Shown: piece by piece, positions 3,997-61,010 of the stretch
How the letters are laid out: each line of letters begins with the position of its first letter
Numbering within the stretch: position 1 is the stretch's first letter
From: an uncultured Clostridia bacterium
Lineage (GTDB): Bacteria > Bacillota > Clostridia > TANB77 > CAG-508
Assembly: GCA_944386685.1 (NCBI GenBank)
Contig: CALXCA010000001.1
Coordinates: 10,931-74,930 of the forward strand
Reading direction: 5' to 3'
DNA length: 64,000 nucleotides
Translations under genes and position numbers: made by a program
Notes under the pieces: model-generated
Told to the model about the DNA's origin: nothing
Databases searched by the model: none
What the model saw: the letters and a program-made list of their open reading frames with translations, nothing else

Positions 3997-4614
3997 CTAA
4001 AAACCTTTGGTAAAAGTATCTCTAAATATATTTACAATTACTTTTACAACTTCATTTTCATTATATAAATTAACAAAAAATTGTCTTGTTGTAGGTATTA
4101 TTGCCAAAATACAAATAACAATAATTAAAACTATTACACCTATAACTATTTTTTGAATGGTTTCTTTAGATAATTTTATTTTTTTCTTTGGAGTTGTTTT
4201 TACTTGATCATTTGTTACTTGCTCTGTTGTATCTCTTTTTCTAGTAATTCCTTTATATAAATTTCTTATAAAGTTTGCAGGCACACTTCCTAAATCTTCT
4301 TCATTTTCATTATTTATATTATATTGATTAGAGAATTTTTTTAAATTATTCTTTAATTGAATATTTTCCTGTTTTAATTTGTTATATTCATCAATAGATA
4401 TTATTTTACTTTGCAAATGATTATCATATTCTTTCCTTTTATAATCATTTGATAATACTTCATATGCTTCATTTATTTTCATCATTCTCTCTTGACTATA
4501 TGCTGATGATCTTAAATCTGGATGATATTTTTTTGCAAGTGTTCTATATGCTTTTTCAATTACTTCTTTTGAAGCATTTTTATCTACTTCTAATATTTCA
4601 TAATAATTTTTCAT
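3997..4614 (-). CDS. J-domain (DnaJ-like) membrane protein
   Basis: 205 aa. [32 protein letters not shown]-domain with HPD. One C-terminal TM ([18 protein letters not shown]). Confidence 0.75.
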
Positions 4615-4777
4615 ACTTTTTCTTATGTTTGGTTTAATCCAACATCTCCTCCATCTTGTTATATTCTACATTAAAACCTTAAATTTCGCAAGTATTTATG
4701 TGTTTTTTTCTAAACTTGTTATTATTTGATAATTGTTTTAAATAAAATAGAATAAAGAAACAATGATATTATAATAT

Positions 4778-4940
4778 TTTAAAGTTTCGACGCTTGATTG
4801 AAATGAAAATTAGAATTCATTTGGCTTTTGCATGAGGAATGTTCACGGTACTCGAGTTTACGAGAGGGTCGGAGTGAAAGAGGCGCATGAAAAAGCCTTA
4901 TGAATTCTTTTTGAATGGAATGAACAGGAGAACTTTTAAA
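4778..4940. mobile_element. MITE-like long-hairpin element, copy 1 (48-nt GC-rich core at 4836-4883)
   Basis: Flanked by direct TATTATAATAT (4767-4777 and 4941-4951). Termini TTTAAAGTT / AACTTTTAAA are inverted. An uninterrupted related site exists at 52638-52715. Second copy at 28056-28213. Confidence 0.7.
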
Positions 4941-5036
4941 TATTATAATATCATCGTTTTTAACAAAACACTTTAAGAGACCATTATTTAGTAACAACTT
5001 GTTATTTTCTACAATTTCTGTTATACTATAATCATT

Positions 5037-5966
5037 ATGGAAGAAAGATATAAACATTTAAACAATTATTTAAAAGAAAAATTTGGAGAAAGAACTTTAA
5101 AAATATGTATAGATGGCAATTTTACTTGTCCTAATAGAGATGGAAAATTAAGTTTAGGAGGCTGTATTTTTTGTAGTGAGAAAGGTTCTGGTGAACATAT
5201 AAAATCAAATAAAAACAGTTCTAATAATTTTGATTTTATTACTGACCAAGTAAAAAATTACTTTAATAGTTATAAAAGTAAAAGAGCAAATAAATTTATT
5301 GCATATTTTCAAAATTTCACAAACACATATGGTCCAATTGATATTTTAAAAAAGAAATATGATTCTGCATTAATTGATGATAGAATTGTTGCTTTAGCTA
5401 TTTCTACCAGACCTGATTGTATTAATGAAGATATTTGCAAATTATTAAAATCTTATCAAAATAAATATTATGTATGGGTAGAGCTTGGATTACAAACTTC
5501 TAATGATATAACTTCTAAATTAATTAACAAATGTTGTTATTCTAAAGATTTTACTTATGCTGTAAATTTACTTAATAAATATAATATTGATATTGTAACA
5601 CATATTATGGTTTGTCTTCCAAATGAGAATTTTAATGATATAAAAAATACAGTAGAATTTATTAATAAACACTTTATTCAAGGTTTAAAAATTCATTCTA
5701 CTTATATTGTAAAAAATACTATATTAGCTGATATGTATAGTAAAGGATTATATATACCTCTAACACTAGAAGAATATTTAAATTATACTTGTTATATTTT
5801 AACACATATTAGTCCAAATATTGTAATTCATAAAGTCTCTGGTGATGCTCCAAAAGATTTACTTGTTGCTCCAGATTGGAATCTTCACAAAAAGTGGATT
5901 TTAAATGGCTTGGACAAAAAATTAAAAGCTGAAAATCTTTGGCAGGGAAAATACTACTCAACTTGA
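5037..5966 (+). CDS. TIGR01212-family radical SAM protein
   Basis: 309 aa. CPNRDG...GGCIFC cysteine cluster and overall TIGR01212/YhcC-like layout. Confidence 0.85.
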   Translation: MEERYKHLNNYLKEKFGERTLKICIDGNFTCPNRDGKLSLGGCIFCSEKGSGEHIKSNKNSSNNFDFITDQVKNYFNSYKSKRANKFIAYFQNFTNTYGPIDILKKKYDSALIDDRIVALAISTRPDCINEDICKLLKSYQNKYYVWVELGLQTSNDITSKLINKCCYSKDFTYAVNLLNKYNIDIVTHIMVCLPNENFNDIKNTVEFINKHFIQGLKIHSTYIVKNTILADMYSKGLYIPLTLEEYLNYTCYILTHISPNIVIHKVSGDAPKDLLVAPDWNLHKKWILNGLDKKLKAENLWQGKYYST

Positions 5967-12293: not shown

Positions 12294-14687
12294 TTATATT
12301 TTTAAAATTTTACAAACAATTAAACTCATATCATCTTTAATCATTCCATAATTATTATCAACAGATTCATTTATAATTAAATCTGCAATTTTTTGTGCAC
12401 TTGTTGTTTCAATATCTTCTAACAAATATTTAACCCATAATTCTTTGTTTTTATATTCCACATTTGAATCTATTATACCATCACTACACATTACTAGTAT
12501 ATCTTGATTTATAATGTCTTTATCATAAACAGTTAAATTTATATCTTTTAATATTCCTGCAGGTAAACTTAAGGATTTAACAATTTGAACATTTTTACCA
12601 TTTTTTATATATGTAGGACATGCTCCATTTTTTATAAATTCAACTTTTCCATTAAACAGGTCTATTATTACAATATCTAGTGTAGCAAATATTTCTTCAT
12701 TTGTGTTCATTATTGTTGTATTTATTAAGTCTATAGATGTATTTTTATCAAATCCTGACATTAATAGTCTTTCCAACATTTTTATAGCAATTTGACTACT
12801 TTTTCTTGCCTCTGGTCCTGACCCCATTCCATCACTTATTGCTAATAAATATTTTCCATCACTTAATCTAATTTGTAAACAACTATCACCAGAAACAGGA
12901 CTTCCATTTTTTACTCTTACATCTTGTCCAATTTGCAATAAATATTTGTCTTCTGCCATATAAGAAAAAACTCTTTTTCCTTGCTTGTTGAATTTTTTTG
13001 TTTTTACTTCATTAATAACTAATTTTTCTTTAAATGTTTTCTCTAAAACGTTTTTAATATTATCTATATCTTTATTTTCTGTTGTTTTGCTATCTTCTTT
13101 TAAATAAATATCAATAAAGATTCTATTTTCTTTTTCCTGTACCACTAAGTCATCAACAAGTATTCCTTTTATTTCTAAAGCTGTAATAGTTTTTTTCTTT
13201 TTATCTACAAATACATCATCTTTTTTTGTCTCATTTTCCATTTTAACAGCAATACTAGAAATTGCTTTAGAAACACCATCTAATTGGGCTTGTACACTTT
13301 GTTTGTTTTGTTTAACTTTCTCTTCCCAAATAAAATCTGATTTGCTTGTTTTATAAGCATAATTTATAGCTTTAGTTATTTGTTCAACATCTGTTTTTAC
13401 ATTTTTATTTTCTGTAGCTATAATATAATGATTATTTTTTGCAAAAATATTTATAATATCTTTACTGTCTATCTCTTGTTTTTCAAGTAAAAGATTAAAT
13501 ATATCATCAAATATTTTTTCATCTATTTTTGTAAAGTCTTCATATAAAATGTTATCTTCTAATCCATCTAAATTATTTAGTAGTTCATTTTTAAAAGTTT
13601 CTTTATTTTTTTGTTTAATTTCATCTTGAGTTTTATTTAAAACTGGTACATAAGTTTCTGCAATATCTTTAATTGTTTCTGATACTACATTTAATTGTTC
13701 TATTGTGTCATTACTAGCTTTTAGTCTATTATTTGGAATATTTGGTAAATATTCTTCTTTTTCTGTTAATCCTTCAATATTAATTTTTATCCATTTTGGA
13801 ACAGCTAATAATCCCACAGAAGCAACTAAAATTTCTTTAAATAAAACAAAATTGCTTGTATCTCCATTAGATACATAAAATAATATTCCACTACCTATGC
13901 CAAAACCTGCTATCACCCCTATTTTTCCAAACCTATTAAGTAAACCAGCTATCATTCCAGAAATTGCATATCCTGCAACAAGAATAGGTTCACTTTGTGA
14001 AATTATTCCCAATGTTACTCCAATTGTTACTCCTGCTGTTGTTCCAACAAGAACTCCATGTCTCCAACCAAGTAATAAAACAATAAAAATACATAAAATA
14101 TTTTTAATTGATAATCCAAATATAGAAAAATCTCCAAACGCTGAAATTGCAATAGAAATTAATAAACAAGCTCCTATTACCTCTTCTATCGAAAATGCTT
14201 GCTTATCTGTAATTCCTTGTATTACGGATAATGAATTTACAAATATTTTATAGAATATAACAGACATTATTGCAAGAGTAATATGTAGTAGTAAATCTCC
14301 AACGGTAAATTCTGTTAATATCATTTTTGCAATCATAACTATCATTATACTGAAGAATATATGTTTTGATATTTGCATTTTTTCATTTTTATACTCATCA
14401 TTTTCTTTTGGTGGTCTTAAACATAAAATTATTAACATCATTAATAATATCAATATATAATTTAAAACTCCAATTACTCCAACACCTATTAAATTACCAA
14501 TCATCCCCAATATAACAACTACTATAGCTGGTATACCATTAGAAAAGCATGCACCTACAATTGCAATACTAAATGGAGAAACATCTTGTTCCATTCCAAC
14601 AATAGATATCATAAATGCCAACACATATATGATTATATTTTTTATACTAAATAAATTTTTTAGTATTTCTTTACTGTTCATAATCAT
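12294..14687 (-). CDS. spoIIE: Stage II sporulation protein E (membrane PP2C phosphatase)
   Basis: 797 aa. About 10 N-terminal TM segments, a central domain, and a C-terminal PP2C domain (LLAISDGMGSGPEARKSS...VMCSDGI). Confidence 0.9.
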   Translation of the reverse strand: MIMNSKEILKNLFSIKNIIIYVLAFMISIVGMEQDVSPFSIAIVGACFSNGIPAIVVVILGMIGNLIGVGVIGVLNYILILLMMLIILCLRPPKENDEYKNEKMQISKHIFFSIMIVMIAKMILTEFTVGDLLLHITLAIMSVIFYKIFVNSLSVIQGITDKQAFSIEEVIGACLLISIAISAFGDFSIFGLSIKNILCIFIVLLLGWRHGVLVGTTAGVTIGVTLGIISQSEPILVAGYAISGMIAGLLNRFGKIGVIAGFGIGSGILFYVSNGDTSNFVLFKEILVASVGLLAVPKWIKINIEGLTEKEEYLPNIPNNRLKASNDTIEQLNVVSETIKDIAETYVPVLNKTQDEIKQKNKETFKNELLNNLDGLEDNILYEDFTKIDEKIFDDIFNLLLEKQEIDSKDIINIFAKNNHYIIATENKNVKTDVEQITKAINYAYKTSKSDFIWEEKVKQNKQSVQAQLDGVSKAISSIAVKMENETKKDDVFVDKKKKTITALEIKGILVDDLVVQEKENRIFIDIYLKEDSKTTENKDIDNIKNVLEKTFKEKLVINEVKTKKFNKQGKRVFSYMAEDKYLLQIGQDVRVKNGSPVSGDSCLQIRLSDGKYLLAISDGMGSGPEARKSSQIAIKMLERLLMSGFDKNTSIDLINTTIMNTNEEIFATLDIVIIDLFNGKVEFIKNGACPTYIKNGKNVQIVKSLSLPAGILKDINLTVYDKDIINQDILVMCSDGIIDSNVEYKNKELWVKYLLEDIETTSAQKIADLIINESVDNNYGMIKDDMSLIVCKILKI

Positions 14688-17660: not shown

Positions 17661-17971
17661 GTGTCGGTCCTTTTTTGTGCTGGGGTCGGTCCTAAATTAA
17701 ACCAATATATAAAGTATTTTTTATACCTTGTGTGTCGCAACCTACAAAAGAATTTCAATAAGTAGGTTGCTCCAAATCGCATTCGCTACGCTCATTTGAT
17801 CGCTTACGCGGTATTACAAAACACTTTATATATTGATTTAATTTAGGACCGACCCCAGCACAAAAAGGGACCGACCCCAGCACAAAAAGGGACCGACCCC
17901 AGCACAAAAAGGGACCGACCCCAGTAGCACAACACAAAAAAGGACCAGCCCCAATAAAAAGGGACCGACCC
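17661..17971. repeat. Composite palindromic element, copy A (iterons - arm - core - arm - iterons)
   Basis: Arms 17684-17720 / 17817-17854. Core 17721-17816. GGACC box starts at 17846, 17868, 17890, 17912, 17942 (degenerate) and 17962. Inverted boxes at 17661-70 and 17682-92. Confidence 0.85.
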
Positions 17972-27978: not shown

Positions 27979-28016
27979 AATATTTAGGTTTTTAAAATGG
28001 CTTTACCTATAAACCC
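27979..28016 (-). promoter_or_regulatory. Conserved upstream module, copy c
   Basis: TATTTAGG starts 27 nt from the mfd start codon at 27954. Confidence 0.4.
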
Positions 28017-28028
28017 AACAGAAATCTA

Positions 28029-28242
28029 TTTTATAAATATTTATATATTAATATTTTATAAATTTTTCGGCTCATTACAATATTCAAGAATTTGTAATAT
28101 GATTTATTGAGCCTCTTTCACTCAGACCCTCTCGTAAACTCGAGTACCGTGAACATCCCTCAATAAATCATATAACAAATTCTAAAATATTTTCAATCGC
28201 ATTCAAAATTTAAATAATATTAATATATAAATATTTATAAAA
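28029..28242. mobile_element. MITE-like long-hairpin element, copy 2 (core 28112-28159), nested inside a perfect 27-bp AT palindrome
   Basis: The core differs from copy 1 at 2 of 48 positions. The outer perfect inverted repeat is TTTTATAAATATTTATATATTAATATT (28029-28055) / its complement (28216-28242). Confidence 0.65.
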
Positions 28243-28280
28243 TAATTATCAGTTATAAATTAAAAATTATTTATTAATAT

Positions 28281-32559: not shown

Positions 32560-32919
32560 TTATTTTCGTTTTTTTAATAACATGTAAATTTCATTAATTG
32601 CAACTATAAGCAAAAATATTCCAAAATACTTTTTTAATGTACTTACATCTGTATTTACTGATATAATAGAGCCTATAATTGCTCCAACAATTCCCCAAAA
32701 AGAAATATTAAAAGCTATTTTTAAATCAAGATTTTTATTTTTATAATTTACAACTATTGCAGAAATTGCAGTTGGAACAAAGTATATTAAATTTGTAGCT
32801 TGTGCAATATGTTGCTCAATATTAACAAATGTAGTAAGTAAAAAAATTAAAATAGTACCTCCACCCATTCCAATTCCACTAAAAATTCCAGAAAAAGCTC
32901 CTGTTAAAATTTCTAACAT
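32560..32919 (-). CDS. Half-size TSUP (TauE/SafE) family membrane transporter subunit
   Basis: 119 aa, about 4 TMs, glycine-rich TSUP signature GIGMGGGTILIFLL. Confidence 0.7.
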   Translation of the reverse strand: MLEILTGAFSGIFSGIGMGGGTILIFLLTTFVNIEQHIAQATNLIYFVPTAISAIVVNYKNKNLDLKIAFNISFWGIVGAIIGSIISVNTDVSTLKKYFGIFLLIVAINEIYMLLKKRK

Positions 32920-33086
32920 ATTAAATTAGATTCCTTTCCACCTCAAAAACTTATTGTTATATCTTATACTTATTCTTTTCTAATTTGAGTTTTTTATATT
33001 CATATTGAAATAACAATCGTTGCATTTTATACAATAGATATGTATATCTTTAGCATTGTATAAATTAACTATGAATCAATAATATT

Positions 33087-33467
33087 TTAAAGAAACAACA
33101 TTCTAAAAGCATAATATAAAATAAAAATAATAAAAATAATTTTTAAAATATAATCTGGCACTTTCTTTAAAAGTTTTGCACCAATATATCCTCCAAAAAT
33201 CCCACCAATTGCACATAATAAACCAGTATCCCATTTTATATAATTATTTTTATAGTAAAAAAAGCTACTTGCTATAACCATAATAAGCATGCAAAATAAA
33301 GATGTTGCTCTTGCTTTTTTGGGTTCTATTTTTAATAAATATATAAAAGATGGCACTAATATCATTCCACCACCAGTTCCAAACAAGCCACAAATTATTC
33401 CTGCAAATAATCCAATTAATATTTTTTTTATACTATTTTTACAGTAATTATTTATTTTAACTTTCAT
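33087..33467 (-). CDS. Half-size TSUP (TauE/SafE) family membrane transporter subunit
   Basis: 126 aa, about 4 TMs, GLFGTGGGMILVP signature. Confidence 0.7.
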   Translation of the reverse strand: MKVKINNYCKNSIKKILIGLFAGIICGLFGTGGGMILVPSFIYLLKIEPKKARATSLFCMLIMVIASSFFYYKNNYIKWDTGLLCAIGGIFGGYIGAKLLKKVPDYILKIIFIIFILYYAFRMLFL

Positions 33468-37550: not shown

Positions 37551-37836
37551 TTGCTGTGGTTATTGGGGTCGGTCCTTTTTTGGTCTGGGGTCGGTCCCTT
37601 TTTTGCTTGGGGTCGGTCCTAAAATCAAACCCAATATATAAATTGTTTTGTAATACCGCGTAAGCGACCAAATGAGCGTAGCGAATGCGATTTGGAGCAA
37701 CCTACTTATTGAAATTCTTTTGTAGGTTGCGACACACAAGGTATAAAAAACAATTTATATATTGGGTTTGATTTTAGGACCGACCCCAATAACCACCACT
37801 GGGCAAGAAAAGGACCAATCACAAATAGACCAGCCC
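37551..37836. repeat. Composite palindromic element, copy B (core inverted relative to A and C)
   Basis: Boxes GGGGTCGGTCC at 37565, 37587 and 37609. Perfect 38-bp arms 37611-37650 / 37745-37785. Box 37777-87. Decayed boxes 37811-20 and 37828-36. Outermost IR CTTGC..GTGGTTATTGGGGTCGGTCC. Confidence 0.85.
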
Positions 37837-37859
37837 TATCATTACCCACTGTACAACTT

Positions 37860-45063: not shown

Positions 45064-48000
45064 TTATTTAGTATTTTTTATTAAAACTTTTCTTTTAATA
45101 AATAGTACTCCAACTACTAGAACTATCAAGCCTAATCCTGCTGTTGTTATATATAGAGTTTTTGATATTATTACACCAGTTGGTGGTGTTATTGTTGTCC
45201 TTACACTATCTTCATCTGTTTCTTTTGCATATTCTGGTATTAAGTTACCTGGTGTTGTAACATTTACTCTATCATAACCAACTTCTGTTTTATCTTTATT
45301 TTGTGTATATCCTATATATTCTAGTATTTCTACATCATTTGTATATTTCATCTCATCACTTGTTGTTAATAATTTACTTACATTATAAGAAATTGATTTT
45401 GTCTCTCCAATTTTTACTAAAGAATCATTTTCATCAGAGAATGCATCTGTCATAAACATTATATATTTACCATCTTCTAGTTCTTTTTCTACTTCTTCAG
45501 TAATTAATCTATATGTTTTTTCTCCAGTAGCCTCTGTTGTTTTGTGTGCTATTAAGTCTTCCATTTCTGCAACTTCCCAGCCACTTCTCTTTAATTCATC
45601 TAAGTCTACATCTATTTCTGGTGTTAAGTAATCTACTAAAGTTCCAATTCTTACTGTTACTGGATTATTACCCTTTTCTCCATAGAAGTAGTAGTTTCTT
45701 TCATTTGCTACATCTGTATCACTTGTTATTTGATATATTGGATAATCTAATTCAGAATTATTACTTACTGAAATAGTATATTCTTCTTCTATTGTTGCAC
45801 CTTCTGTTAATTCTGTATCCATTTCAATTGGAACAAAATCATCTATTCCTGTTCTTACATATGGAATATCTTCATTTGGATCACTTGGGTTTCCTTTAAT
45901 AGGTACTTGACCATTTCCTAATGTTACTGTTAAATTTGTAATTTGTTTATCAACTTCTAATTCAACTAAAGGTCTTTCTATTAATCCAAAGTCCATATTT
46001 TGTAAATTATATTCATAATCTATTGTTCCATTTTCTTGTGTTGTTAATGTTGCATCAACATTTTGGTCATTAAATTGTTCTACACCTAGTCTCATATATG
46101 GAGTATATGCTTCCATTTCTGAGTATGCGTATTTTGAACTATCATTTATGTTTTCATTATTTAGTTTTGCATATTGTTCAAAATATGCTCTATATTCAAT
46201 ATCATCTACTGCATCTGAATATCTTGTTCCTGTATTGTTATTTAAGAACCATGATACATCAGTATTTCCTTCTGCCCAATCTCCGTTTAAATGTGGTATA
46301 CCATCATTTGCTGTATTTATTGCTTTTCTTATATAATCTGATGTTATTATTGTAGATTTATATTCTCTTGCCTTTATTGGCTCTTGTTTTACTTGTTCTC
46401 CATTATTGTAGATATAAGTATTCTTTCCTTCTCCACCAATATTTTCACCATAAGTATATCTTATTACATAATTGTCTGCAACTACACCTTCAAATGAATA
46501 GTTACCATTTTCATCTGTCCAAGTTACTGCATCTCCAATTTCTGTTTGTGTTCCATCATTATTTGTTTTATAAAGTTTTGCTAATTGATAATTATGTTTA
46601 GATGTTACATTATCTCTAGCCATTGTAGAATCATACATTTCGTTTGCATCTACTGGCACTAATAATAGTTCTACTTTAACATTTGACATTACACTTTCAT
46701 TTTCATCATATGTTCCATTTCCTAATCTTTCATTATCTTTTAACAAATCTTTATCAGCACTATCTTCATAAACTGTTCCTGTTATACTTGTTTGACTACC
46801 TTTTGTTAAGATAAATGTTGGTGCTATTGTTGTATCATTTTCAAATGTATCTATTTTAAATCTATTATTATCATTTGGATCTGTTTCTACTCTAGCATTT
46901 CTTGGAGCAGAATTACTATCTATACTTGCATATGGTCTTAATCCGCCAGATGTTTGTAAAGGAACTACTTCATTATCTGCATATGTTGAATATGTTTTTA
47001 TTTCTGCCATAAAGTCAAATTTAATTCCTTTTAATTCTCCATCTGGAGTATTTAATGCTGTTGCATCATTTAAAATTTCTGCTATAACTTTTGCATCTGC
47101 CCTTAGGGTTATTTCTATTACCTGTCTATTTTTTGCTTCTATTGTCTTATCACCTAATTGTGTTAAATCTAAAGTAAGTTCTTTAATTTCTCCAGTTCCA
47201 CCTGGATCTGTAACTGCTACGGCAGGTTCTCCCTCATAATTATATGATATACAAGATAATTGACTTCCATAATTAATTGTTATTTCCCTAATTTTTGCTG
47301 ATAATGTATTAGATTTATTTTGTAAATAAATTTTATAAGTAATATCTGCATATACATTTCCATTTGCACCTGTTGTTCCATCATCTGCACTATATACAAT
47401 TGTTGATTCATGTAATGGTCTTTCATAATAACTGTCTTTTAATGCTTTTAATTTAACTCCCATTTCTTCCTCTTTATTTGGATCAACTATTGTACCATAT
47501 TTATATATATGATGATAATTATTTACTGCTAAATCAAATCTTGCTACATCACTATCTAGTGCTAAGTCTACTTGCTCTCTTACATATAATCCTAAATTTA
47601 ATCCTTCTATTGTTGTTGTATTAGAAATGTTTGAGCCACTACCAGACATTGTTGCTGATAATAAATCTGCAATATTGCAATTGTTTAATGATGTTGCAAT
47701 TATATGGTAAACATCATCACCATAAGCTTCTGGGCTACCATAATTTACTTTTGATTCATAATCTCCAGATTTATTATAATTAATAGTTGCTGAAGCATTT
47801 ACTACTGTTCCTGTAGAATTTCCACTAGCATCCATTTGAGTATTAGAAGTTATTGTTTCAAACTTATTATTAAAGCTTTCTCTTACACTATCTTCTTCAG
47901 CTGCTTTTGATGAATCTAAAGCTCCACCTTTATTTAATTCTACATTTCTATATTTTACACCATTATATTCAAATTCAACATAATAGCTTGCTAAATCTTC

Positions 48001-51000
48001 TATTCTTAATGTATCTTCAGAATAAGATAAGTCTGCATTTCTTGATCCAAATGAGTATTCTCCATTTGCATCTGTAAATGTGCTAAAACTTGTTCCTCTT
48101 ACAGTATCATATAATGTTACTTTAACACCTTCAACTCTCTTATCTGTTCCACCTGTATAAACACTATCTATTGTATTGTCTTTTCCATCTAGCATATCTT
48201 CCCATACATAACCTTTTAGGTTAATAAATTCTTTCTTATTAGCAACTTTTACAATACAAATTATATCTCCAGAATTTATTGTTACTTCCGCAACCTTTTT
48301 ATTTCCTGCACCTGTATTATAATTATCTTCCCAAACACCATAACCATAAGGTGATTCTATTTCATAAATTGTATAAGTTCCTGCATGTAATCCTGTTATT
48401 GTTTCTCCAACTCCAACTTCCCATGTTTGACCATCACCTTCAACTCTAAATTTAAATCCAGAACCTCCTGGGTTTGAAGGATCATATAATATCTCTCCAG
48501 TATCTTCATCATATTTAAAAATTGTTAAACTTTTTGGTAGTTCTGGTGGTGTGAATGTAATTGTAGTAGAAAATGTTTCTTCTAAATCTAATGTACTACA
48601 AGCACTTTCTGGAACATTTATTGGTTGGCTAGTACTTTGACCTTGACCACATCCTGGACAAACATATTCTGGTGATACAACAAATTGATCTGTCCATGAG
48701 AAACATATTGTAATTGAAATATGTATTGTTCTAGAAATTGTAACACTTAATGATGTTGCACCTGCACTACCTTCTAATTGTACTGCTGTAACACTACAAT
48801 CAAGACCAGCTCCACCTGAAATTATACTCTCAATTGCTTCTCCATCAAATGATGTCATATTAGAAGCATCAACATGACCAGCAATTGCATTCCAAACAGC
48901 TTCTGATTCTGCATCTGTAAATGAGCCTGGAATATCTCCATCAATAGAGAAATCTAATCCTTCATTAGTCCAGCTCAAATTTGCTCCCTCTGGGAAGTCA
49001 TCTCCAGAAACTGTAACTGTTGTACTTGTTATAGATATACCTGTTGGTCCATTATATACAACTGGTACAGATATTTCACTCCATTCATAATATCTACCAT
49101 CACATTCTTGAGGTCCTGTTGGGTCATTTTCATCTACTGGATGACAGTTTTCATCAGTATGGAAGTGAGCTCCTGGTTTACCACATTTACCTTCACCAAC
49201 TAAATTTCCTGAATGGTCATATATCTTAAATACACCTGTTCCTGAACCTTGGAAATTAGATAAGATTGCACTAAATGTAGCTCCATGTAAATTTGCTGTT
49301 GCATCCATTACAGCATCTTGTACCATTGCTTCTGCTTGTGCTTGTGCATCTGCAATTGTTCCATCTATTGAATATGCAAAGCCTTTTGTATTAAATGCAA
49401 ACATTGATGTTGCAAAAATTACCATAAATAATACAAATAATCTCTTTTTAACAATAATTTTTCTCATAAATAATACTAATAATACTATACAAATTCCACC
49501 TAAAATTGTACTTCCCATAATTCTTAATGCAATTTGGAATCCTGTTGCAACTGCAATTAATACTTCTACTGAATCTGAATTATTTTCTGAATTCATATCT
49601 TCAGTATATTTTGAACTCTCTGTTGTTCCAAGTTTTGCTGTTGTAACAAATTTACCAGCAGAATCTGCATCTAATGTTTTACTTAATATAAATGTTGCTT
49701 CTATACTTTCTCCTGGTGCTATATTTTTATTTGCAAAACTTACATTACTGTATGTATTAGATAAAGAAACTGTCCAACCATCATTTAATTCTGAGTGGAA
49801 ATCTAATGTTGATGGAATTTCTTCTAATATCTCATATACCTTTCCATCTAAATCTCCAACATTTGTAACTCTTATTTTATATTCAATAATAACTGTTGAA
49901 CCAACTATTTGTTTTGAATGAATTTCAATTTTTGCAAATTTTTCATCATCAAAATTATATTCTTTTGTTCCTTTACTATTATTTACAGTTATTTTTTCTA
50001 CAAATTGTTCTATTTTTAAGTCAAATGTTTTTCTTTCACTTAATCCCATATCTATATTAGTATAATTTGTAATTAAATCTATTGTATTTGTAATACCAAC
50101 ATTTTTTACTTCTCCATCAATATTAACACTTTTTTCTATTGCGTCATTATTTTCTGATGGATTTGAATCTATAATTTGATAATCTGTGATTTTATATTTT
50201 TCTGTATCATATTCAAATACAACATAATATTCTCCTTTAGGAAGATTTGTAAAAGCATATGTTCCTTCTGATTGTGTAACTTGTTTTAATCTATTACCTT
50301 TATCATCTGTAACAAATTTATTATTTGTTACATCATATAAAGATACTGTTACACCTTCTATTTTACTTTCATTACTATCTTTAATTCCATTTTCATTATC
50401 ATCATTCCAAACTAAACCAGATATAGAATATGTTTTATTTGGTTGATCATTATTATCATCTTCTGGAGGTGTTACTATTGGTTTATCTTCTCCATCTGTT
50501 ACATTTCCATCTGAATCTACATCAATTATATTTGTAGTATCTGGATGATATAATGTATTTTGAATTATATTAGATTGTTTTGTCTTAATACCTTCTCCAC
50601 TTACTAATGCTGAATTTGCAATTTCAATATTATCTTGTTTAGCGTCAAATGCTCTAGTTTCTGTTACAATTTTTATTGTAATTGTTTCACCATTTTTTAT
50701 ATTTAAGTTAAGTTTTATTCTTGCAGGTCCAGTATTATCTTTACCATTTGCTTGACCTTTTTCTACTGTTCCCCAAACAACATTTTCTTCTGTTAAATTA
50801 TATTTAATTATAAAATAATTATCTAAATCTGTTCCTTGTGTAACTTTAAAATTATTATATTCTAATTCTTGTATAGAAAGTTCATTTGGAAGATAATCTT
50901 CAAATACTACTGATGTATATCCTCCCCATTCATCTATAGTATAACCTGTATTTGTAATTTCGTAAGTATATATTATTTCATTAAATTCTTCTATTCTTTC

Positions 51001-52518
51001 ACCACTTGTTTCAGAACTTTGTGTAATACTTACTGATTCTATTCCACCTGTTGCTATACATTCATTAGCTCTATAAATATTTCCATCTGAATTCTCAAAA
51101 TTTGAACTAACTTTAATCTCATACATTTTTTCTGTTGTTTCCTCAGCAATATTTACTTTTAAATTTAATGTAAAAGCTCTAAAAAATTGAGGTTCAATAT
51201 TGTCTACAACAATAGAAATTTTTCCATCTTTAACTTCATAATTTGCTACTGCACCTTCTCCTGCATATATAGCATCTACACTTGTAACTTCAACATTATT
51301 TGGAATAGTAAAATTAATTGTTCCACTTTTTGCTTCATCAGATAAATTTTTAATTATAATATTATATTCAAAATTGTTTTTTTCCATTCTGCTTTGATAT
51401 TGTCTCATTCTAACTTCAATATCACTTGGTTTAAGTGTATTTCTCATATTAAATGTGTAAATATAATTATCATTAACTAAAAATTCTATATTAGTTTCTG
51501 CATCAATTTCTGTATCTGTATTTGCTTTTAACTCATAAGATATTGTTTTAGTTTCTCCTGGTTGAAGTGTTTCTACGGTACGTTCAATATCTTTTATACT
51601 TTCATCAACAGTATATTGATATGTATCATCTTGCCAATATACTCCATTTTTATCTGGTTTTAAAGTTTCAACAGCTGTATATGTTTCATCCCAAAATTCA
51701 AAATTTTCTTCTAAATAATCTACATATACCATTCCATCTGGTATGTTTGCCATTAATTTCAAGTTATTAATTACATCTTGAGATATATTTGTAATATTTA
51801 TTTCATATTTTACTATTTCATTAGAATAAATAGTTTCACCATTTTCTAATGTTTTGTCTCCATGAATTGGGTTAATATTTAATTTAATACCATTTCTTTC
51901 TACAACCATTTGATTCTCATCATCTGTTGGTGTAGATGGAACAAGTTCAGTTGGATTTACAACTTTAATTGGAACATCTACCGTAAGTTTTAATGGTGTT
52001 GGAGTTGCAGCTCCATCTGTACATGTCATTTTAATTGATGTATCTTTTGTTTCTATATCTTGTTTTAAAATAACATTTGCAGAAATTACAATATTGGTTC
52101 CTTTTGTTAATTCATCTACTTTTGTTTTAGTTTGTTTTCCTGCTAATTGAACTTTTATTACTTGATTTCCACTTTCATTAGTTTCTACAATACAAGTATG
52201 AATACTTAATTCTGTATCATAAAGTAATTTTTGGTCATTTATTACTACCTTTTCTACTTCTTCTGGAAATTCAAATGTAATTAAAGGATTTTCGTATAAT
52301 ATAGAATCCTCCGAAGTTCTTTCTAATATACCTGTTATTACCAATTCTCCTTGAGTTTTATTAGTAAATTGTGTACGGCTTAAGCTCATACTAATTTTGC
52401 CTTGTGTTCCAGAACTAGTATCACTAGTTGCTTCTGTAGCTAAAGACACTAAACTTAGTAAAGAACTGTTTAATAACAATACTATTAATATTAAAATACT
52501 ACATATCTTTTTAGTCAT
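45064..52518 (-). CDS. Giant multi-domain surface protein 1 (about 2484 aa): DUF11-like and SdrD-B/Cna-B-like modules, mid-protein TM pair, C-terminal TPPTG anchor
   Basis: AGGAGG lies 9 nt upstream of ATG 52518; the track ATG at 52524 is only 3 nt from it. N-terminal signal peptide. DUF11/TIGR01451-like units (GETIYSNEIVKYEINITNISQDVINNLKLMANIPDGMVYV). SdrD-B-like units (YSISGLVWNDDNENGIKDSNESKIEGVTVSLYD; LKGYVWEDMLDGKDN..VEGVKVTLYD; ITGTVYEDSADKD). SpaA/prealbumin-like unit (SLTIFKYDEDTGEIL...YTIYEIESPYGYG). C-terminus TPPTG-TM-KRK. Confidence 0.85.
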   Translation of the reverse strand: MTKKICSILILIVLLLNSSLLSLVSLATEATSDTSSGTQGKISMSLSRTQFTNKTQGELVITGILERTSEDSILYENPLITFEFPEEVEKVVINDQKLLYDTELSIHTCIVETNESGNQVIKVQLAGKQTKTKVDELTKGTNIVISANVILKQDIETKDTSIKMTCTDGAATPTPLKLTVDVPIKVVNPTELVPSTPTDDENQMVVERNGIKLNINPIHGDKTLENGETIYSNEIVKYEINITNISQDVINNLKLMANIPDGMVYVDYLEENFEFWDETYTAVETLKPDKNGVYWQDDTYQYTVDESIKDIERTVETLQPGETKTISYELKANTDTEIDAETNIEFLVNDNYIYTFNMRNTLKPSDIEVRMRQYQSRMEKNNFEYNIIIKNLSDEAKSGTINFTIPNNVEVTSVDAIYAGEGAVANYEVKDGKISIVVDNIEPQFFRAFTLNLKVNIAEETTEKMYEIKVSSNFENSDGNIYRANECIATGGIESVSITQSSETSGERIEEFNEIIYTYEITNTGYTIDEWGGYTSVVFEDYLPNELSIQELEYNNFKVTQGTDLDNYFIIKYNLTEENVVWGTVEKGQANGKDNTGPARIKLNLNIKNGETITIKIVTETRAFDAKQDNIEIANSALVSGEGIKTKQSNIIQNTLYHPDTTNIIDVDSDGNVTDGEDKPIVTPPEDDNNDQPNKTYSISGLVWNDDNENGIKDSNESKIEGVTVSLYDVTNNKFVTDDKGNRLKQVTQSEGTYAFTNLPKGEYYVVFEYDTEKYKITDYQIIDSNPSENNDAIEKSVNIDGEVKNVGITNTIDLITNYTNIDMGLSERKTFDLKIEQFVEKITVNNSKGTKEYNFDDEKFAKIEIHSKQIVGSTVIIEYKIRVTNVGDLDGKVYEILEEIPSTLDFHSELNDGWTVSLSNTYSNVSFANKNIAPGESIEATFILSKTLDADSAGKFVTTAKLGTTESSKYTEDMNSENNSDSVEVLIAVATGFQIALRIMGSTILGGICIVLLVLFMRKIIVKKRLFVLFMVIFATSMFAFNTKGFAYSIDGTIADAQAQAEAMVQDAVMDATANLHGATFSAILSNFQGSGTGVFKIYDHSGNLVGEGKCGKPGAHFHTDENCHPVDENDPTGPQECDGRYYEWSEISVPVVYNGPTGISITSTTVTVSGDDFPEGANLSWTNEGLDFSIDGDIPGSFTDAESEAVWNAIAGHVDASNMTSFDGEAIESIISGGAGLDCSVTAVQLEGSAGATSLSVTISRTIHISITICFSWTDQFVVSPEYVCPGCGQGQSTSQPINVPESACSTLDLEETFSTTITFTPPELPKSLTIFKYDEDTGEILYDPSNPGGSGFKFRVEGDGQTWEVGVGETITGLHAGTYTIYEIESPYGYGVWEDNYNTGAGNKKVAEVTINSGDIICIVKVANKKEFINLKGYVWEDMLDGKDNTIDSVYTGGTDKRVEGVKVTLYDTVRGTSFSTFTDANGEYSFGSRNADLSYSEDTLRIEDLASYYVEFEYNGVKYRNVELNKGGALDSSKAAEEDSVRESFNNKFETITSNTQMDASGNSTGTVVNASATINYNKSGDYESKVNYGSPEAYGDDVYHIIATSLNNCNIADLLSATMSGSGSNISNTTTIEGLNLGLYVREQVDLALDSDVARFDLAVNNYHHIYKYGTIVDPNKEEEMGVKLKALKDSYYERPLHESTIVYSADDGTTGANGNVYADITYKIYLQNKSNTLSAKIREITINYGSQLSCISYNYEGEPAVAVTDPGGTGEIKELTLDLTQLGDKTIEAKNRQVIEITLRADAKVIAEILNDATALNTPDGELKGIKFDFMAEIKTYSTYADNEVVPLQTSGGLRPYASIDSNSAPRNARVETDPNDNNRFKIDTFENDTTIAPTFILTKGSQTSITGTVYEDSADKDLLKDNERLGNGTYDENESVMSNVKVELLLVPVDANEMYDSTMARDNVTSKHNYQLAKLYKTNNDGTQTEIGDAVTWTDENGNYSFEGVVADNYVIRYTYGENIGGEGKNTYIYNNGEQVKQEPIKAREYKSTIITSDYIRKAINTANDGIPHLNGDWAEGNTDVSWFLNNNTGTRYSDAVDDIEYRAYFEQYAKLNNENINDSSKYAYSEMEAYTPYMRLGVEQFNDQNVDATLTTQENGTIDYEYNLQNMDFGLIERPLVELEVDKQITNLTVTLGNGQVPIKGNPSDPNEDIPYVRTGIDDFVPIEMDTELTEGATIEEEYTISVSNNSELDYPIYQITSDTDVANERNYYFYGEKGNNPVTVRIGTLVDYLTPEIDVDLDELKRSGWEVAEMEDLIAHKTTEATGEKTYRLITEEVEKELEDGKYIMFMTDAFSDENDSLVKIGETKSISYNVSKLLTTSDEMKYTNDVEILEYIGYTQNKDKTEVGYDRVNVTTPGNLIPEYAKETDEDSVRTTITPPTGVIISKTLYITTAGLGLIVLVVGVLFIKRKVLIKNTK

Positions 52519-52656
52519 AAACATTTACCTCCTAATTAATTTTATTAATAAACACTACTTTTATTATACCATATATTACCTTATTTTTCAACATTTTTAT
52601 CAAATTTCTTATCAATAGTTACTAGATTATGGTCTTGAATAAAATAGAAAATAAAG

Positions 52657-52684
52657 AAACGATGATATTATAATATCATCGTTT
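52657..52684. repeat. Perfect AT palindrome AAACGATGATAT-TATA-ATATCATCGTTT inside an approximately 78-bp dispersed repeat (52638-52715)
   Basis: Uninterrupted counterpart of the site split by the element at 4778-4940. Confidence 0.7.
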
Positions 52685-52733
52685 TTAGCAAAACAATTCA
52701 AATGACCATTATCTACTATCATACAAAAACATA

Positions 52734-52778
52734 AAAAGCTGGGATAGAAAACTTTTTAGATTTTCCATCTCAGCTTTT
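52734..52778 (-). terminator. Terminator after giant gene 2
   Basis: AAAAGCTGGGATAGAAAA / TTTTCCATCTCAGCTTTT imperfect 18-bp stem. A U-rich tract follows on the minus strand. Confidence 0.5.
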
Positions 52779-52832
52779 ATTTTATATAACTATCAATTTT
52801 ATGAATTTTTATAATATTTATATAATTTCAAG

Positions 52833-60641: not shown

Positions 60642-61010
60642 AAAAATCCCTCCCACTTTTACAATACTATTAATATTTTATCACAATTTTACATAAAACA
60701 CAAGCTTTTTGCCATTTTTTTCTAATTTTTTTATTTTAACTAACTTGCATATTTTTTAGCTGTCTGTAGGCATTTAGGGAAACTTGACTTACAACGTTTT
60801 TTTATGTCTTGCTTCAAGTTTTTTATTTATATATTTTTTGTAGTTTTTTGTTTTTACATCATATAAAAACGCATTTTCTACAATGCAAAGAATAGCAAGG
60901 AAAACTTGCTATTCTTTGTTTTGATTAAATATTTTCATTTGTATTTTTAAATATCTAGTTATTTTCTTTAGTTTTTATTGTTTCTTTAGTTTTTATTTAT
61001 TTTAGAAGTT

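What the first reader, a model, noticed from the sequence alone, without database searches (positions are those of the whole stretch)
4778..4940. Direct evidence of a mobile long-hairpin element: 163-bp insertion with 11-bp target duplication, and a related uninterrupted site in the same window
The sequence around 4744-4990 is about 88% identical, by manual alignment over about 78 bp, to 52638-52715. That region contains the perfect palindrome AAACGATGATAT-TATA-ATATCATCGTTT. At the 4.8-kb locus the palindrome is split at its apex by 163 bp (4778-4940). The insert is flanked by direct repeats TATTATAATAT (4767-4777 and 4941-4951) and has inverted termini TTTAAAGTT / AACTTTTAAA. The insert folds into one long imperfect hairpin whose apex is a 48-nt GC-rich core (4836-4883). 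The 92-aa ORF 4779-5057 in the track is an artefact of this element. A non-autonomous element that inserts into the loop of a pre-existing palindrome or terminator recalls palindrome-targeting IS elements and REP-associated systems. No transposase is visible in the window.
Basis: seen in the sequence. Interest (0 to 1): 0.65.

Follow-up and report, generated by a model that had tools for sequence, protein, structure and literature searches.

The report
Hairpin-shaped miniature transposon in gut Clostridia
The 163-bp "insert" is the conserved centre of a roughly 275-bp non-coding jumping element (a MITE with terminal inverted repeats and an 8-bp target duplication) found in many copies in uncultured gut Clostridia, and the "uninterrupted site" is a shortened sister copy of that element, so this is a new family of a familiar kind, not a new way of moving.

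Summary
4721-4995 and 52618-52720 are 82.5% identical end to end, apart from 162 extra bp (4778-4939) flanked by ATATTATAATAT.

Sister species have an empty DnaJ/radical-SAM spacer. That shows the inserted unit is the whole 275-bp element 4721-4995. It has degenerate terminal inverted repeats (consensus GTTACTAGATAATGG) and an 8-bp target duplication, AACTTGTT. The same ends and 8-bp duplications recur in other copies.

A second copy lies at about 27987-28275 on the minus strand. About 90 more loci were found in gut Clostridia MAGs and metagenomes. All copies are single long hairpins with a shared centre, GAGGRAUGUUCAC-variable hairpin-CUGAGUGAAAGAGGCUC. Their arms differ between copies but are mirrored within each copy.

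The 12-bp "target duplication" is itself a palindrome inside the stem, so it is automatically a direct repeat. Other subfamilies have no direct repeat at that boundary.

The 52.6-kb site is a paralogous short copy, most likely made by deleting the hairpin apex between the 12-bp repeats. A nested, separately mobile centre is not excluded, because the centre is far better conserved than the ends.

No transposase, Rfam family, phage match or plasmid match was found. This is a new member of the MITE kind with unusual arm evolution.

The parts
4713..4720 (.). Left copy of the 8-bp target-site duplication AACTTGTT. The longest direct repeat is 11 bp, 4713-4723.
   Evidence: The empty orthologous sites in L040, L041 and L043 carry one copy, and the window carries two.
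4721..4735 (+). Left terminal inverted repeat, degenerate: ATTATTTGATAATTG. The family consensus is GTTACTAGATAATGG.
   Evidence: It matches the right end at 10 of 15 positions.
4736..4757 (+). Left linker, AT-rich and fast-evolving.
   Evidence: Outer arms are 70-87% identical among paralogs, with indels.
4758..4777 (+). Left basal stem AAACAATGATATTATAATAT. It includes the 12-bp palindromic repeat at 4766-4777.
   Evidence: In strain L036, 4762 A>G restores pairing.
4778..4939 (+).
   Evidence: It is absent from the paralog at 52.6 kb. It is 95-98% identical to the centres of L001, L006, L019 and L020. Covariation supports the hairpin.
4833..4887 (+). Conserved G+C-rich core: TGAGGAATGTTCAC, a variable apex hairpin, then GGAGTGAAAGAGGCGCA.
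   Evidence: There are two exact 30-mers in the window. It is shared by 30 genome loci and 59 metagenome loci, and the apex varies with compensating changes.
4940..4959 (+). Right basal stem ATATTATAATATCATCGTTT. It includes the second 12-bp repeat at 4940-4951.
4960..4980 (+). Right linker.
4981..4995 (+). Right terminal inverted repeat CCATTATTTAGTAAC, the reverse complement of GTTACTAAATAATGG.
4996..5003 (.). Right copy of the 8-bp target-site duplication AACTTGTT.
4779..5057 (-). A 92-aa ORF that is not a gene. It is created by the element.
   Evidence: Most of it lies inside the insertion, which is absent from sister species.
27987..28275 (-). Second full copy (subfamily B). The hairpin is 28017-28254 and the core is 28108-28162. 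The outer limits are approximate, and the ends are decayed.
   Evidence: (I4, I13). The sister species L056 has only 19-39 nt between the two flanking genes, against 326 nt here.
52618..52720 (+). Short 103-bp paralog of the subfamily A element. It has both ends, both linkers and the basal stem (palindrome 52657-52684), but no central module.
   Evidence: It is 82.5% identical to 4721-4995 once 174 bp are removed. It is the same in 5 other strains. It is the only such form in the window plus the 30 genome loci, 291 kb.

Best explanation
The feature at 4.8 kb is one copy of a previously undescribed family of non-autonomous DNA transposons (MITEs, about 250-330 bp) in uncultured, low-G+C, spore-forming gut Clostridia.

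**Anatomy of a copy.**
- 15-nt terminal inverted repeats: GTTACTAGATAATGG in subfamilies A and C, GTTAC[AT]ATTCACAG in subfamily B.
- An 8-bp target-site duplication.
- No coding capacity.
- A body that is one long foldback hairpin.
- Read from the outside in: end, fast-evolving linker, perfectly paired basal stem, imperfect inner arms, then a conserved core (GAGGRAUGUUCAC, a variable apex hairpin, CUGAGUGAAAGAGGCUC).

**Shown.**
- The whole 275-bp unit is present in this species and absent from the same spacer in three sister species.
- It is flanked by a duplicated AACTTGTT.
- Other copies have the same ends and perfect 8-bp duplications.
- There are at least 10 copies in one MAG.

**Inferred.**
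1. A transposase encoded elsewhere, making 8-bp staggered cuts, moves the whole unit.
2. The 103-bp copy at 52.6 kb arose from a full-length copy. The hairpin apex was deleted by slipped mispairing, or by hairpin cleavage and annealing, between the two 12-bp copies of ATATTATAATAT. Because that 12-mer is a palindrome, it sits as a direct repeat in both arms.
3. The arms stay complementary through templated correction between the arms of a quasi-palindrome, through selection for the hairpin, or both.
4. The conserved centre is needed in cis by the element. Its role is unknown.
For: **Filled against empty orthologous sites.**
- The DnaJ/radical-SAM spacer is 422 nt in the window and in all the contigs of this species that were shown or grouped as similar places; 8 of the 9 returned loci are 422 nt and L035 is 421 nt.
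- It is 139, 95 and 121 nt in relatives at 93%, 83% and 77% protein identity.
- The alignment places the gap at AACTTGTT|...|AACTTGTT.

**Ends and target duplications.**
- The 8 bp outside the GTTAC ends match 8/8 in window copy 1, L012, L016, L020 and L021, and 7/8 in L008 and L014.
- L119 (subfamily C) gives 7/8 with the same end, GTTACTAAATAATGG.

**Second locus.** The copy at 28 kb is also wholly absent from a sister species.

**Copy number and spread.**
- 30 loci in 8 MAGs, 10 of them in BRZ_HA__bin44.
- 59 metagenome loci.
- Neighbouring genes are unrelated housekeeping genes.

**Hairpin.**
- 96.1% of cells are paired, against 80.1% in shuffles and 41-49% when the partners are slid.
- 38 of 60 pairs show compensatory changes.

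**The 12-mer is a palindrome.**
- Copies L009-L011 and subfamily C show only inverted symmetry at the same boundary.

**Deletion reading of the short copy.**
- Site B's linkers and ends are closest to those of window copy 1 and sit among filled copies.
- A second short form, L019 4738-4836, breaks at a different place inside the inner arms, at a shared GAAAT(T).
- Short forms are rare: one in the window plus the 30 genome loci, 291 kb.
- AT-rich palindromes are known to be deleted in bacteria between direct repeats of 2-23 bp, by slipped mispairing or SbcCD-dependent annealing (PMC1851657, which cites Bzymek and Lovett 2001).
- Template switching that makes the arms of inverted repeats identical is established (PMC7202029, PMC8604942).

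**Family criteria.** The MITE criteria are taken from PMC3184786 and PMC10969869.
Against: - **No autonomous partner.** No IS or transposase with matching ends was found. There is none in the window and none next to 89 other loci.
- **Uneven conservation.** The central 162 bp is 95-98% identical among paralogs. The outer arms are 70-87% identical and the terminal repeats sit about 13% from consensus. Simple neutral decay of copies that moved as one unit does not predict this.
- **Mixed ends.** One inner-arm type (D) occurs with both kinds of end: L092 against L066 and L076.
- **Decayed copies.** About a third of copies, including the 28-kb copy, have no recognisable terminal repeat.
- **L029.** Its flanks beyond the ends are inverted, not direct.
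- **Direction unresolved.** Deletion between the 12-mers and insertion with a 12-bp duplication leave the same sequence. The direction rests on parsimony only.
- **L019 gap.** The full-length right arm of the L019 subfamily was not seen.
Confidence: 0.65

Rival explanations
1. Nested element. The central hairpin module of about 162 bp is itself mobile and homes into the palindromic apex (GATATTATAATATC) of an older, shorter MITE. It duplicates the apex as it inserts. On this view the 52.6-kb copy is a never-filled target.
For: - There is a clean junction with a 12-bp repeat and intact ends in the short copy.
- The centre is much more uniform (95-98%) than the outer arms (70-87%) and the terminal repeats, as expected of a younger invader.
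- Inner type D is combined with two different kinds of end.
- The core looks self-nested: a stem followed by AGRGKC occurs inside a similar motif. A shorter core without the innermost hairpin exists in L008 6817-6986 and L014 2916-3056.
Against: - The module was never seen outside the larger hairpin in about 90 loci.
- The junction type co-varies with the inner type: ATATTATAATAT with A, ATATATTAATAT with B.
- Subfamily C and copies L009-L011 have no direct repeat at the boundary.
- The basal stem outside the 'insert' is as conserved as the insert.
- At both window loci the ancestral state lacks everything.
- Only one unfilled copy was found in 291 kb.
- The L019 short form breaks inside the 'insert', so a second kind of nested element would be needed.
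- No protein that could do the homing was found.
Confidence: 0.2
2. Host or element RNA. The conserved centre is a structured non-coding RNA, either a small RNA gene or a cis-acting 3'/5' UTR hairpin. It is kept by selection at each locus, and the transposon features are only its vehicle.
For: - Covariation is strong and the apex varies in sequence but not in shape.
- The unpaired internal loops are purine-rich on one strand only.
- A TTGAnn-N16-18-TAGAAT motif sits on the left arm of subfamilies A and B.
- Placement is non-random. There are 0 copies in convergent spacers against 14 in divergent ones. In tandem spacers, 37 copies lie antisense to the flanking genes and 14 lie sense.
- The centre is 92-94% identical between species.
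Against: - The arms show no G-U over A-C excess on either strand (65 against 51), and one-sided (G-U type) intermediates are rare. This fits a DNA-level inverted repeat.
- There is no Rfam match at any threshold.
- There is no recurrent neighbouring gene.
- Promoter-like matches are common in this AT-rich DNA: 9 found against 3.1 expected, none better than 10 of 12.
- No terminator-like site was found.
- Both orientations occur.
- Conservation of the core flanks is partly imposed by the search patterns.
Confidence: 0.12
3. Chance similarity of AT-rich low-complexity DNA, or an assembly artefact.
For: The window is 26% G+C, and short AT-rich repeats such as TAAATATT are frequent.
Against: - The G+C-rich core recurs exactly.
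- The identical locus appears in independent assemblies from 9 samples.
- About 90 related loci were found.
Confidence: 0.01

Closest known systems
Bacterial MITEs that fold into long hairpins: Correia elements of Neisseria, ERIC/IRU of enterobacteria, and bcr1 of the Bacillus cereus group
   Same: They are small, non-coding, multi-copy and mostly intergenic. They have terminal inverted repeats and a target duplication, and filled and empty sites between relatives. The whole element is an imperfect palindrome. Long and internally shortened size classes coexist; for Correia (about 155 against 105 bp) and ERIC variants this is from my own knowledge. See the reviews PMC3184786, PMC2229807 and PMC10969869.
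   Different: - The ends have a different sequence.
- The duplication is 8 bp, against TA for Correia and TTTAT for bcr1.
- The host is an uncultured Clostridia lineage.
- The central G+C-rich core is better conserved than the ends.
- The arms diverge by up to about 50% between copies yet stay mirrored within each copy.
- No autonomous partner is known.
IS elements that insert into the loops of palindromic repeats (IS1397/ISKpn1 in REP/BIME units; IS110/IS1111 members in REPs)
   Different: Those are protein-coding IS elements with short, non-palindromic duplications. Here the 'insert' codes for nothing, the 'duplication' is a palindromic piece of the stem, and the ancestral sites lack the palindrome as well. 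The statements about those IS elements are from my own knowledge and were not tested here.
REP/BIME sequences with RAYT, and IS200/IS605-derived palindrome-associated elements
   Same: They are repeated extragenic hairpins without coding capacity, thought to act as single-stranded DNA hairpins.
   Different: REPs are 20-40 nt, lack terminal inverted repeats and target duplications, and come with a Y1 (RAYT) gene. Here the element is 250-330 bp, has 15-nt terminal repeats and 8-bp duplications, and no Y1 transposase domain was found in the window.
Palindrome-stimulated deletion and quasi-palindrome template switching in bacteria
   Same: Deletions remove a hairpin between short direct repeats (2-23 bp, PMC1851657). 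Templated changes make the two arms of an inverted repeat identical (PMC7202029, PMC8604942). Together these reproduce the short copy and the mirrored arms.
   Different: These are general mutational processes, not an element family. Their action here is inferred from sequence patterns and was not observed.

Membership tests
MITE (non-autonomous DNA transposon with terminal inverted repeats) | Small size (about 50-500 bp) and no coding capacity | tested here: met
   The element is 275 bp (4721-4995), and other copies are 200-330 bp. The only ORF is the artefactual 4779-5057.
MITE (non-autonomous DNA transposon with terminal inverted repeats) | Terminal inverted repeats shared by the copies | tested here: met
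   The consensus ends are GTTACTAGATAATGG (subfamilies A and C) and GTTAC[AT]ATTCACAG (subfamily B). They carry 0-3 mismatches at both ends of about 14 copies and are decayed in about a third of copies.
MITE (non-autonomous DNA transposon with terminal inverted repeats) | Target-site duplication of fixed length | tested here: met
   The duplication is 8 bp. It matches 8/8 in five copies and 7/8 in three. For window copy 1 it is confirmed against empty sites.
MITE (non-autonomous DNA transposon with terminal inverted repeats) | Multiple dispersed copies, with filled and empty sites between relatives | tested here: met
   There are 10 loci in one MAG, 30 in 8 MAGs, and 59 metagenome loci. Empty orthologous sites exist for both window copies.
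MITE (non-autonomous DNA transposon with terminal inverted repeats) | A cognate autonomous IS with the same ends | not testable with these tools
   None was found in the window or within 3.5 kb of the other copies. Whole genomes of the hosts could not be scanned.
   All copies sit in the same homologous larger hairpin. The boundary repeat exists only where the stem is palindromic and is absent in L009-L011 and in subfamily C.
   The 9 returned loci from other samples are all filled at 4.8 kb, and 5 loci are short at 52.6 kb. Sister species lack the whole element. Sampling is limited.
REP/BIME with RAYT | A 20-40 nt palindrome, no terminal repeats or target duplication, and an associated Y1 transposase | tested here: not met
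   The size, terminal repeats and 8-bp duplication all contradict this. No Y1_Tnp domain was found in the window ORFs.
IS200/IS605-derived palindrome-associated element | Subterminal hairpins, no terminal repeats, no target duplication, and insertion next to a fixed tetra- or pentanucleotide | tested here: not met
   Terminal repeats and 8-bp duplications of varied sequence are present.
Any curated RNA family (Rfam 15) | A match to a covariance model | tested here: not met
   There was no match at gathering score in the window or in 14 loci of other subfamilies. Around the element there was nothing better than E = 1.9.
Integron attC site | RYYYAAC ... GTTRRRY ends in that order, placed next to a cassette ORF in an array | tested here: not met
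   The ends read GTTAC...GTAAC, which is the opposite order, and the purine rule fails. Copies are single, dispersed and carry target duplications.

The most novel reading that the evidence does not exclude
The conserved centre (GAGGRAUGUUCAC, a variable hairpin, CUGAGUGAAAGAGGCUC, together with its TAGAAnTTC stem) may be a functional nucleic-acid module in its own right. It could be a structured RNA, or a DNA hairpin recognised by an unknown protein. Such a module would spread or be homogenised between hairpin elements independently of their ends. Its carrier arms would be kept perfectly self-complementary by a templated, hairpin-primed copying step. That would be a propagation or repair mechanism not described for bacterial repeats.
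Probability: 0.15. Interest if true: 0.7.

Novelty: new member of a known kind. Interest (0 to 1): 0.35.

Why it matters
- **Annotation.** It adds a MITE family, and a second hairpin-repeat family in the same window, for a common but uncultured group of gut Clostridia. Such repeats create false ORFs (4779-5057), break assemblies and sit in promoter regions. Here the element landed on the -35 region of a radical-SAM gene promoter and duplicated it.
- **A caution for reading sequence.** When a hairpin stem contains a palindromic stretch, a deletion of the apex and an insertion with target duplication leave the same sequence. A flanking direct repeat is then not evidence of insertion.
- **Open questions worth following.** The family has a centre conserved better than its ends, and arms that diverge quickly yet stay mirrored. 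It could serve as a natural system for studying how long palindromes are kept, corrected and trimmed in bacterial chromosomes.

Tried and rejected
- **Rfam.** Searches of the window at gathering score, of 4600-5100 at E up to 10, and of 14 loci of other subfamilies gave nothing.
- **Known ribozyme or RNA motifs, by eye.** CUGAGUGAAAG has one base too many for the hammerhead core and no stem II. The internal loop does not fit a k-turn. The ends are in the wrong order for attC.
- **Sarcin-ricin loop resemblance.** The apex of copy 1 matches the 23S rRNA sarcin-ricin loop at 19 of 26 positions (loop sequence from memory). I judged this chance because other subfamilies carry unrelated apices.
- **Phage or plasmid origin.** The core is absent from viral contigs. 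BLAST against plasmids gave no hit, and against phages only one marginal 59-nt hit. A 20-mer for the 'empty' junction gave two chance hits in viral contigs.
- **Strand test.** G-U against A-C mismatches in the arms showed no asymmetry.
- **Promoter and terminator scans.** Only weak promoter-like matches were found, as is typical of AT-rich DNA, and no terminator-like sites.
- **Small peptides.** A 10-aa and a 29-aa reading frame inside the element are not conserved in subfamily B.
- **Associated gene or autonomous partner.** Clustering of 409 neighbouring ORFs gave only housekeeping families. Solitary end-like hits in L005, L016, L018 and L028 were not elements.
- **More short copies.** A strict search for end pairs 70-165 nt apart found none, but it would also have missed site B.
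- **Exact limits of the 28-kb copy.** The candidate 8-bp repeat TAAATATT is too common in this genome to count.
- **Literature.** Keyword searches for a description of this family returned nothing relevant.

Full report
**1. Checking the observation**

- At 52657-52684 lies the perfect palindrome AAACGATGATATTATAATATCATCGTTT.
- At 4.8 kb the same sequence is interrupted.
It is 82.5% identical over 101/103 bp, from 4721-4995 against 52618-52720.
- The repeat is 12 bp, ATATTATAATAT, at 4766-4777 and 4940-4951.
- 4740-4990 folds into one long hairpin: -63.7 kcal/mol, z = -6.4 on the plus strand, and -56.6 kcal/mol, z = -7.3 on the minus strand.
- 4836-4883 is 52% G+C in a window that is 26% G+C.

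This is not chance. The 30-nt core occurs twice in the window, at 4841-4870 (+) and 28125-28154 (-), against 0 expected.

**2. A second copy, and a family**

The second copy at 28 kb lies on the minus strand. Its hairpin is 28017-28254 (I4, I13).
- It shares a nearly identical 55-nt core with copy 1.
- Its arms differ in sequence yet still pair.

A scan of one genome per species found the core in 30 loci of 8 MAGs of uncultured Clostridia, 10 of them in one MAG. A looser pattern found 59 metagenome loci, mostly from gut samples. A profile search of the window finds just these two copies.

Every copy is a single long hairpin. On 31 copies:
- 96.1% of cells are paired, against 80.1% in shuffles and 41-49% when the partners are slid.
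- 38 of 60 pairs show changes on both sides.

Several arm subfamilies exist. The window has A at 4.8 kb and B at 28 kb, and C and D are seen elsewhere.

The apex hairpin inside the core varies in sequence and length but keeps its shape: CUCG/CGAG, AAACUU/AAGUUU, AAAGGC/GCCUUU, GAAGCC/GGCUUC. The flanking GAGGRAUGUUCAC and CUGAGUGAAAGAGGCUC were imposed by my search pattern. They do recur in weaker form in variant cores that a profile search found without that pattern (L008 6817-6986 and L014 2916-3056).

**3. What actually inserted**

The radical-SAM protein next to copy 1 is found on many contigs of the same species, and the contigs shown (8 of 9 at 422 nt, L035 at 421 nt) carry the long spacer. 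Its orthologs at 93%, 83% and 77% identity sit 139, 95 and 121 nt from the DnaJ-domain gene. The alignment shows:
- empty site: CTAAACTTGTTATTTTCTGCAG
- window: CTA[AACTTGTT]ATTATTTGATAATTG ... CCATTATTTAGTAAC[AACTTGTT]ATTTTCT

So the whole 275 bp, 4721-4995, is the insertion. It is flanked by an 8-bp duplication (11 bp at most) and bounded by imperfect inverted ends.

The same ends recur. The consensus is GTTACTAGATAATGG in subfamilies A and C, and GTTAC[AT]ATTCACAG in subfamily B. The 8 bp outside them match:
- 8/8 in L012, L016, L020, L021 and window copy 1
- 7/8 in L008, L014 and L119

For the 28-kb copy, a sister species has only 19-39 nt between the same two genes, against 326 nt here. 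Again the mirrored flanks came in together with the centre.

These are the defining features of a MITE (PMC3184786, PMC10969869).

**4. What the 52.6-kb site is**

It has its own ends (GTTACTAGATTATGG / GATAGTAGATAATGG), both linkers and the basal stem. It is therefore a paralogous copy of the subfamily A element that lacks the central 162 bp. It is not an unoccupied target. It is the same in five other strains.

The 12-mer is its own reverse complement. Any hairpin stem that contains it carries it as a direct repeat on both arms. Deletion of the apex between the two copies and insertion with a 12-bp duplication are then indistinguishable in sequence.

Several points favour deletion:
- The boundary repeat exists only where the stem happens to be palindromic. 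Copies L009-L011 and all subfamily C copies show pure inverted symmetry there.
- The junction type follows the inner-arm type.
- The basal stem outside the 'insert' is as conserved as the insert.
- No centre was ever seen outside the larger hairpin.
- Only one short copy of this kind was found in 291 kb.
- A second short form, L019 4738-4836, is broken at a different place inside the inner arms, at a shared GAAAT(T).

Deletion of AT-rich palindromes between direct repeats of 2-23 bp, by slipped mispairing or SbcCD-dependent annealing, is well documented in bacteria (PMC1851657).

**5. What keeps the nested-element idea alive**

- The 162-bp centre is 95-98% identical among paralogs of one genome and 92-94% identical to a copy from another species.
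- The outer arms are only 70-87% identical, and the terminal repeats are about 13% from consensus.
- Inner type D is found with both kinds of end.
- The core looks self-nested, and a shorter core exists.

These facts fit a younger centre that spreads among older carriers. They also fit selection on the centre, or gene conversion among copies. One hint of conversion: subfamilies A and A' in MAG BRZ_HA__bin44 share the core variant GGGTCGGAGTG, although the A' arms group with copies from other genomes. I put the nested reading at about 0.2.

**6. Mirrored, fast-evolving arms**

In all subfamilies the stretch between the ends and the conserved centre differs greatly between copies, by about half in subfamily C. 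Within each copy it is almost perfectly complementary.
- One-sided (G-U type) states are rare: about 30 cells against 296 two-sided.
- Neither strand shows a G-U excess (65 against 51).
- L001 carries the same linker type on both arms, which looks like conversion of one arm by the other.
- In L029 the palindrome runs 27 nt beyond the ends.

This points to symmetry kept at the DNA level. Template switching at quasi-palindromes is a known process that makes arms identical (PMC7202029, PMC8604942). Selection for the hairpin is the alternative. This is inference.

**7. Function and context**

- No transposase domain was found for the ORFs of the window; the artefactual 4779-5057 and two giant surface-protein paralogs were not scanned (Pfam labels).
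- Genes next to the other copies are unrelated housekeeping genes.
- There is no match in Rfam, viral contigs, plasmids or phages.
- Copies avoid convergent spacers: 0 there against 14 in divergent ones.
- In tandem spacers they lie antisense to the flanking genes 37 times and sense 14 times. The second data set may contain orthologous duplicates.
- Promoter-like matches are no better than expected for AT-rich DNA, and no terminator-like site was found.

An RNA role for the centre is possible but unsupported.

Copy 1 landed on the -35 box of the radical-SAM promoter (TTGTTA-17-TATACT) and duplicated it.

**8. Verdict**

This is a mobile hairpin element, but the mobile unit is the 275-bp MITE with 8-bp duplications. 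The 11/12-bp 'duplication' is a palindromic piece of the stem. The 'related uninterrupted site' is a short paralog, probably a deletion derivative.

It is a new member of a known kind. Two features deserve follow-up: the centre is conserved better than the ends, and the arms diverge quickly yet stay mirrored.

Noticed in passing
window 17663-17928 (+), 37556-37790 (inverted), 41385-41653 (+): A second, unrelated hairpin repeat family of about 250 bp. Its ends are 1-4 tandem 22-bp units (GGGACCGACCCCAGCACAAAAA). It has long inverted arms and a G+C-richer unique centre of about 90 nt. It folds at -105 to -124 kcal/mol and has no Rfam match.
   Followed up: partly
window 37790-41385: Two copies of that second family bracket a 3.6-kb segment. 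The segment holds three ORFs without Pfam domains (37860-38735, 39671-40801, 41146-41487). It may be a segment moved or bounded by the repeats.
   Followed up: no
window 32560-33467 and 1529-1577: A TauE/SafE exporter is encoded as two half-size ORFs (32560-32919 and 33087-33467). The 167-bp gap between them holds a palindrome, TTTATACAATAG...CTATTGTATAAA, that also occurs at 1529-1577. This could be a split gene or yet another small repeat.
   Followed up: no
window 4999-5027 and 4713-4723: The element at 4.8 kb inserted at the -35 box of the radical-SAM gene's promoter-like site (TTGTTA-17-TATACT). The target duplication recreates that box on the gene side.
   Followed up: partly
window 4848-4873: The apex of copy 1, CUCGAGUUUACGAGAGGGUCGGAGUG, resembles the 23S rRNA sarcin-ricin loop CUCCUAGUACGAGAGGACCGGAGUG at 19 of 26 positions (loop sequence from memory). 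Other subfamilies have unrelated apices, so this is probably chance.
   Followed up: partly
L008 2918-3154 and window 27987-28275: In a different MAG (CAYVCM) a subfamily B copy also lies just upstream of mfd, although a closer sister species (L056) has none there. The two insertions may be independent events in the same spacer.
   Followed up: no
L029 6740-7040: In this copy the palindrome continues 27 nt beyond the terminal repeats (TTGGCATTTTTTGAGAAA ... TTTCTCAAAAAATGCCAA). The flanks are inverted, not direct. Either the copy inserted into an existing hairpin or the palindrome grew outward.
   Followed up: partly
window 45064-63680: Three tandem paralogs of a giant surface protein (2486 aa, 2607 aa, and more than 889 aa; SdrD_B, DUF11 and CarboxypepD_reg domains). 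The short element copy sits in the spacer between the first two.
   Followed up: no
window, whole: Of the 40 ORFs, 36 are on the minus strand. G+C is 26% and SpoIIE is present (12294-14687). The organism is a spore-forming, low-G+C Clostridia seen in many human gut metagenomes (Brazil, Hadza and others).
   Followed up: partly
window 4762, 4885, 4937, 4951 (strains L032, L036, L037): The few within-species differences in the element include 4762 A>G, which restores a base pair in the basal stem, and 4885 G>T, which restores the family consensus GAGGCTCA.
   Followed up: partly
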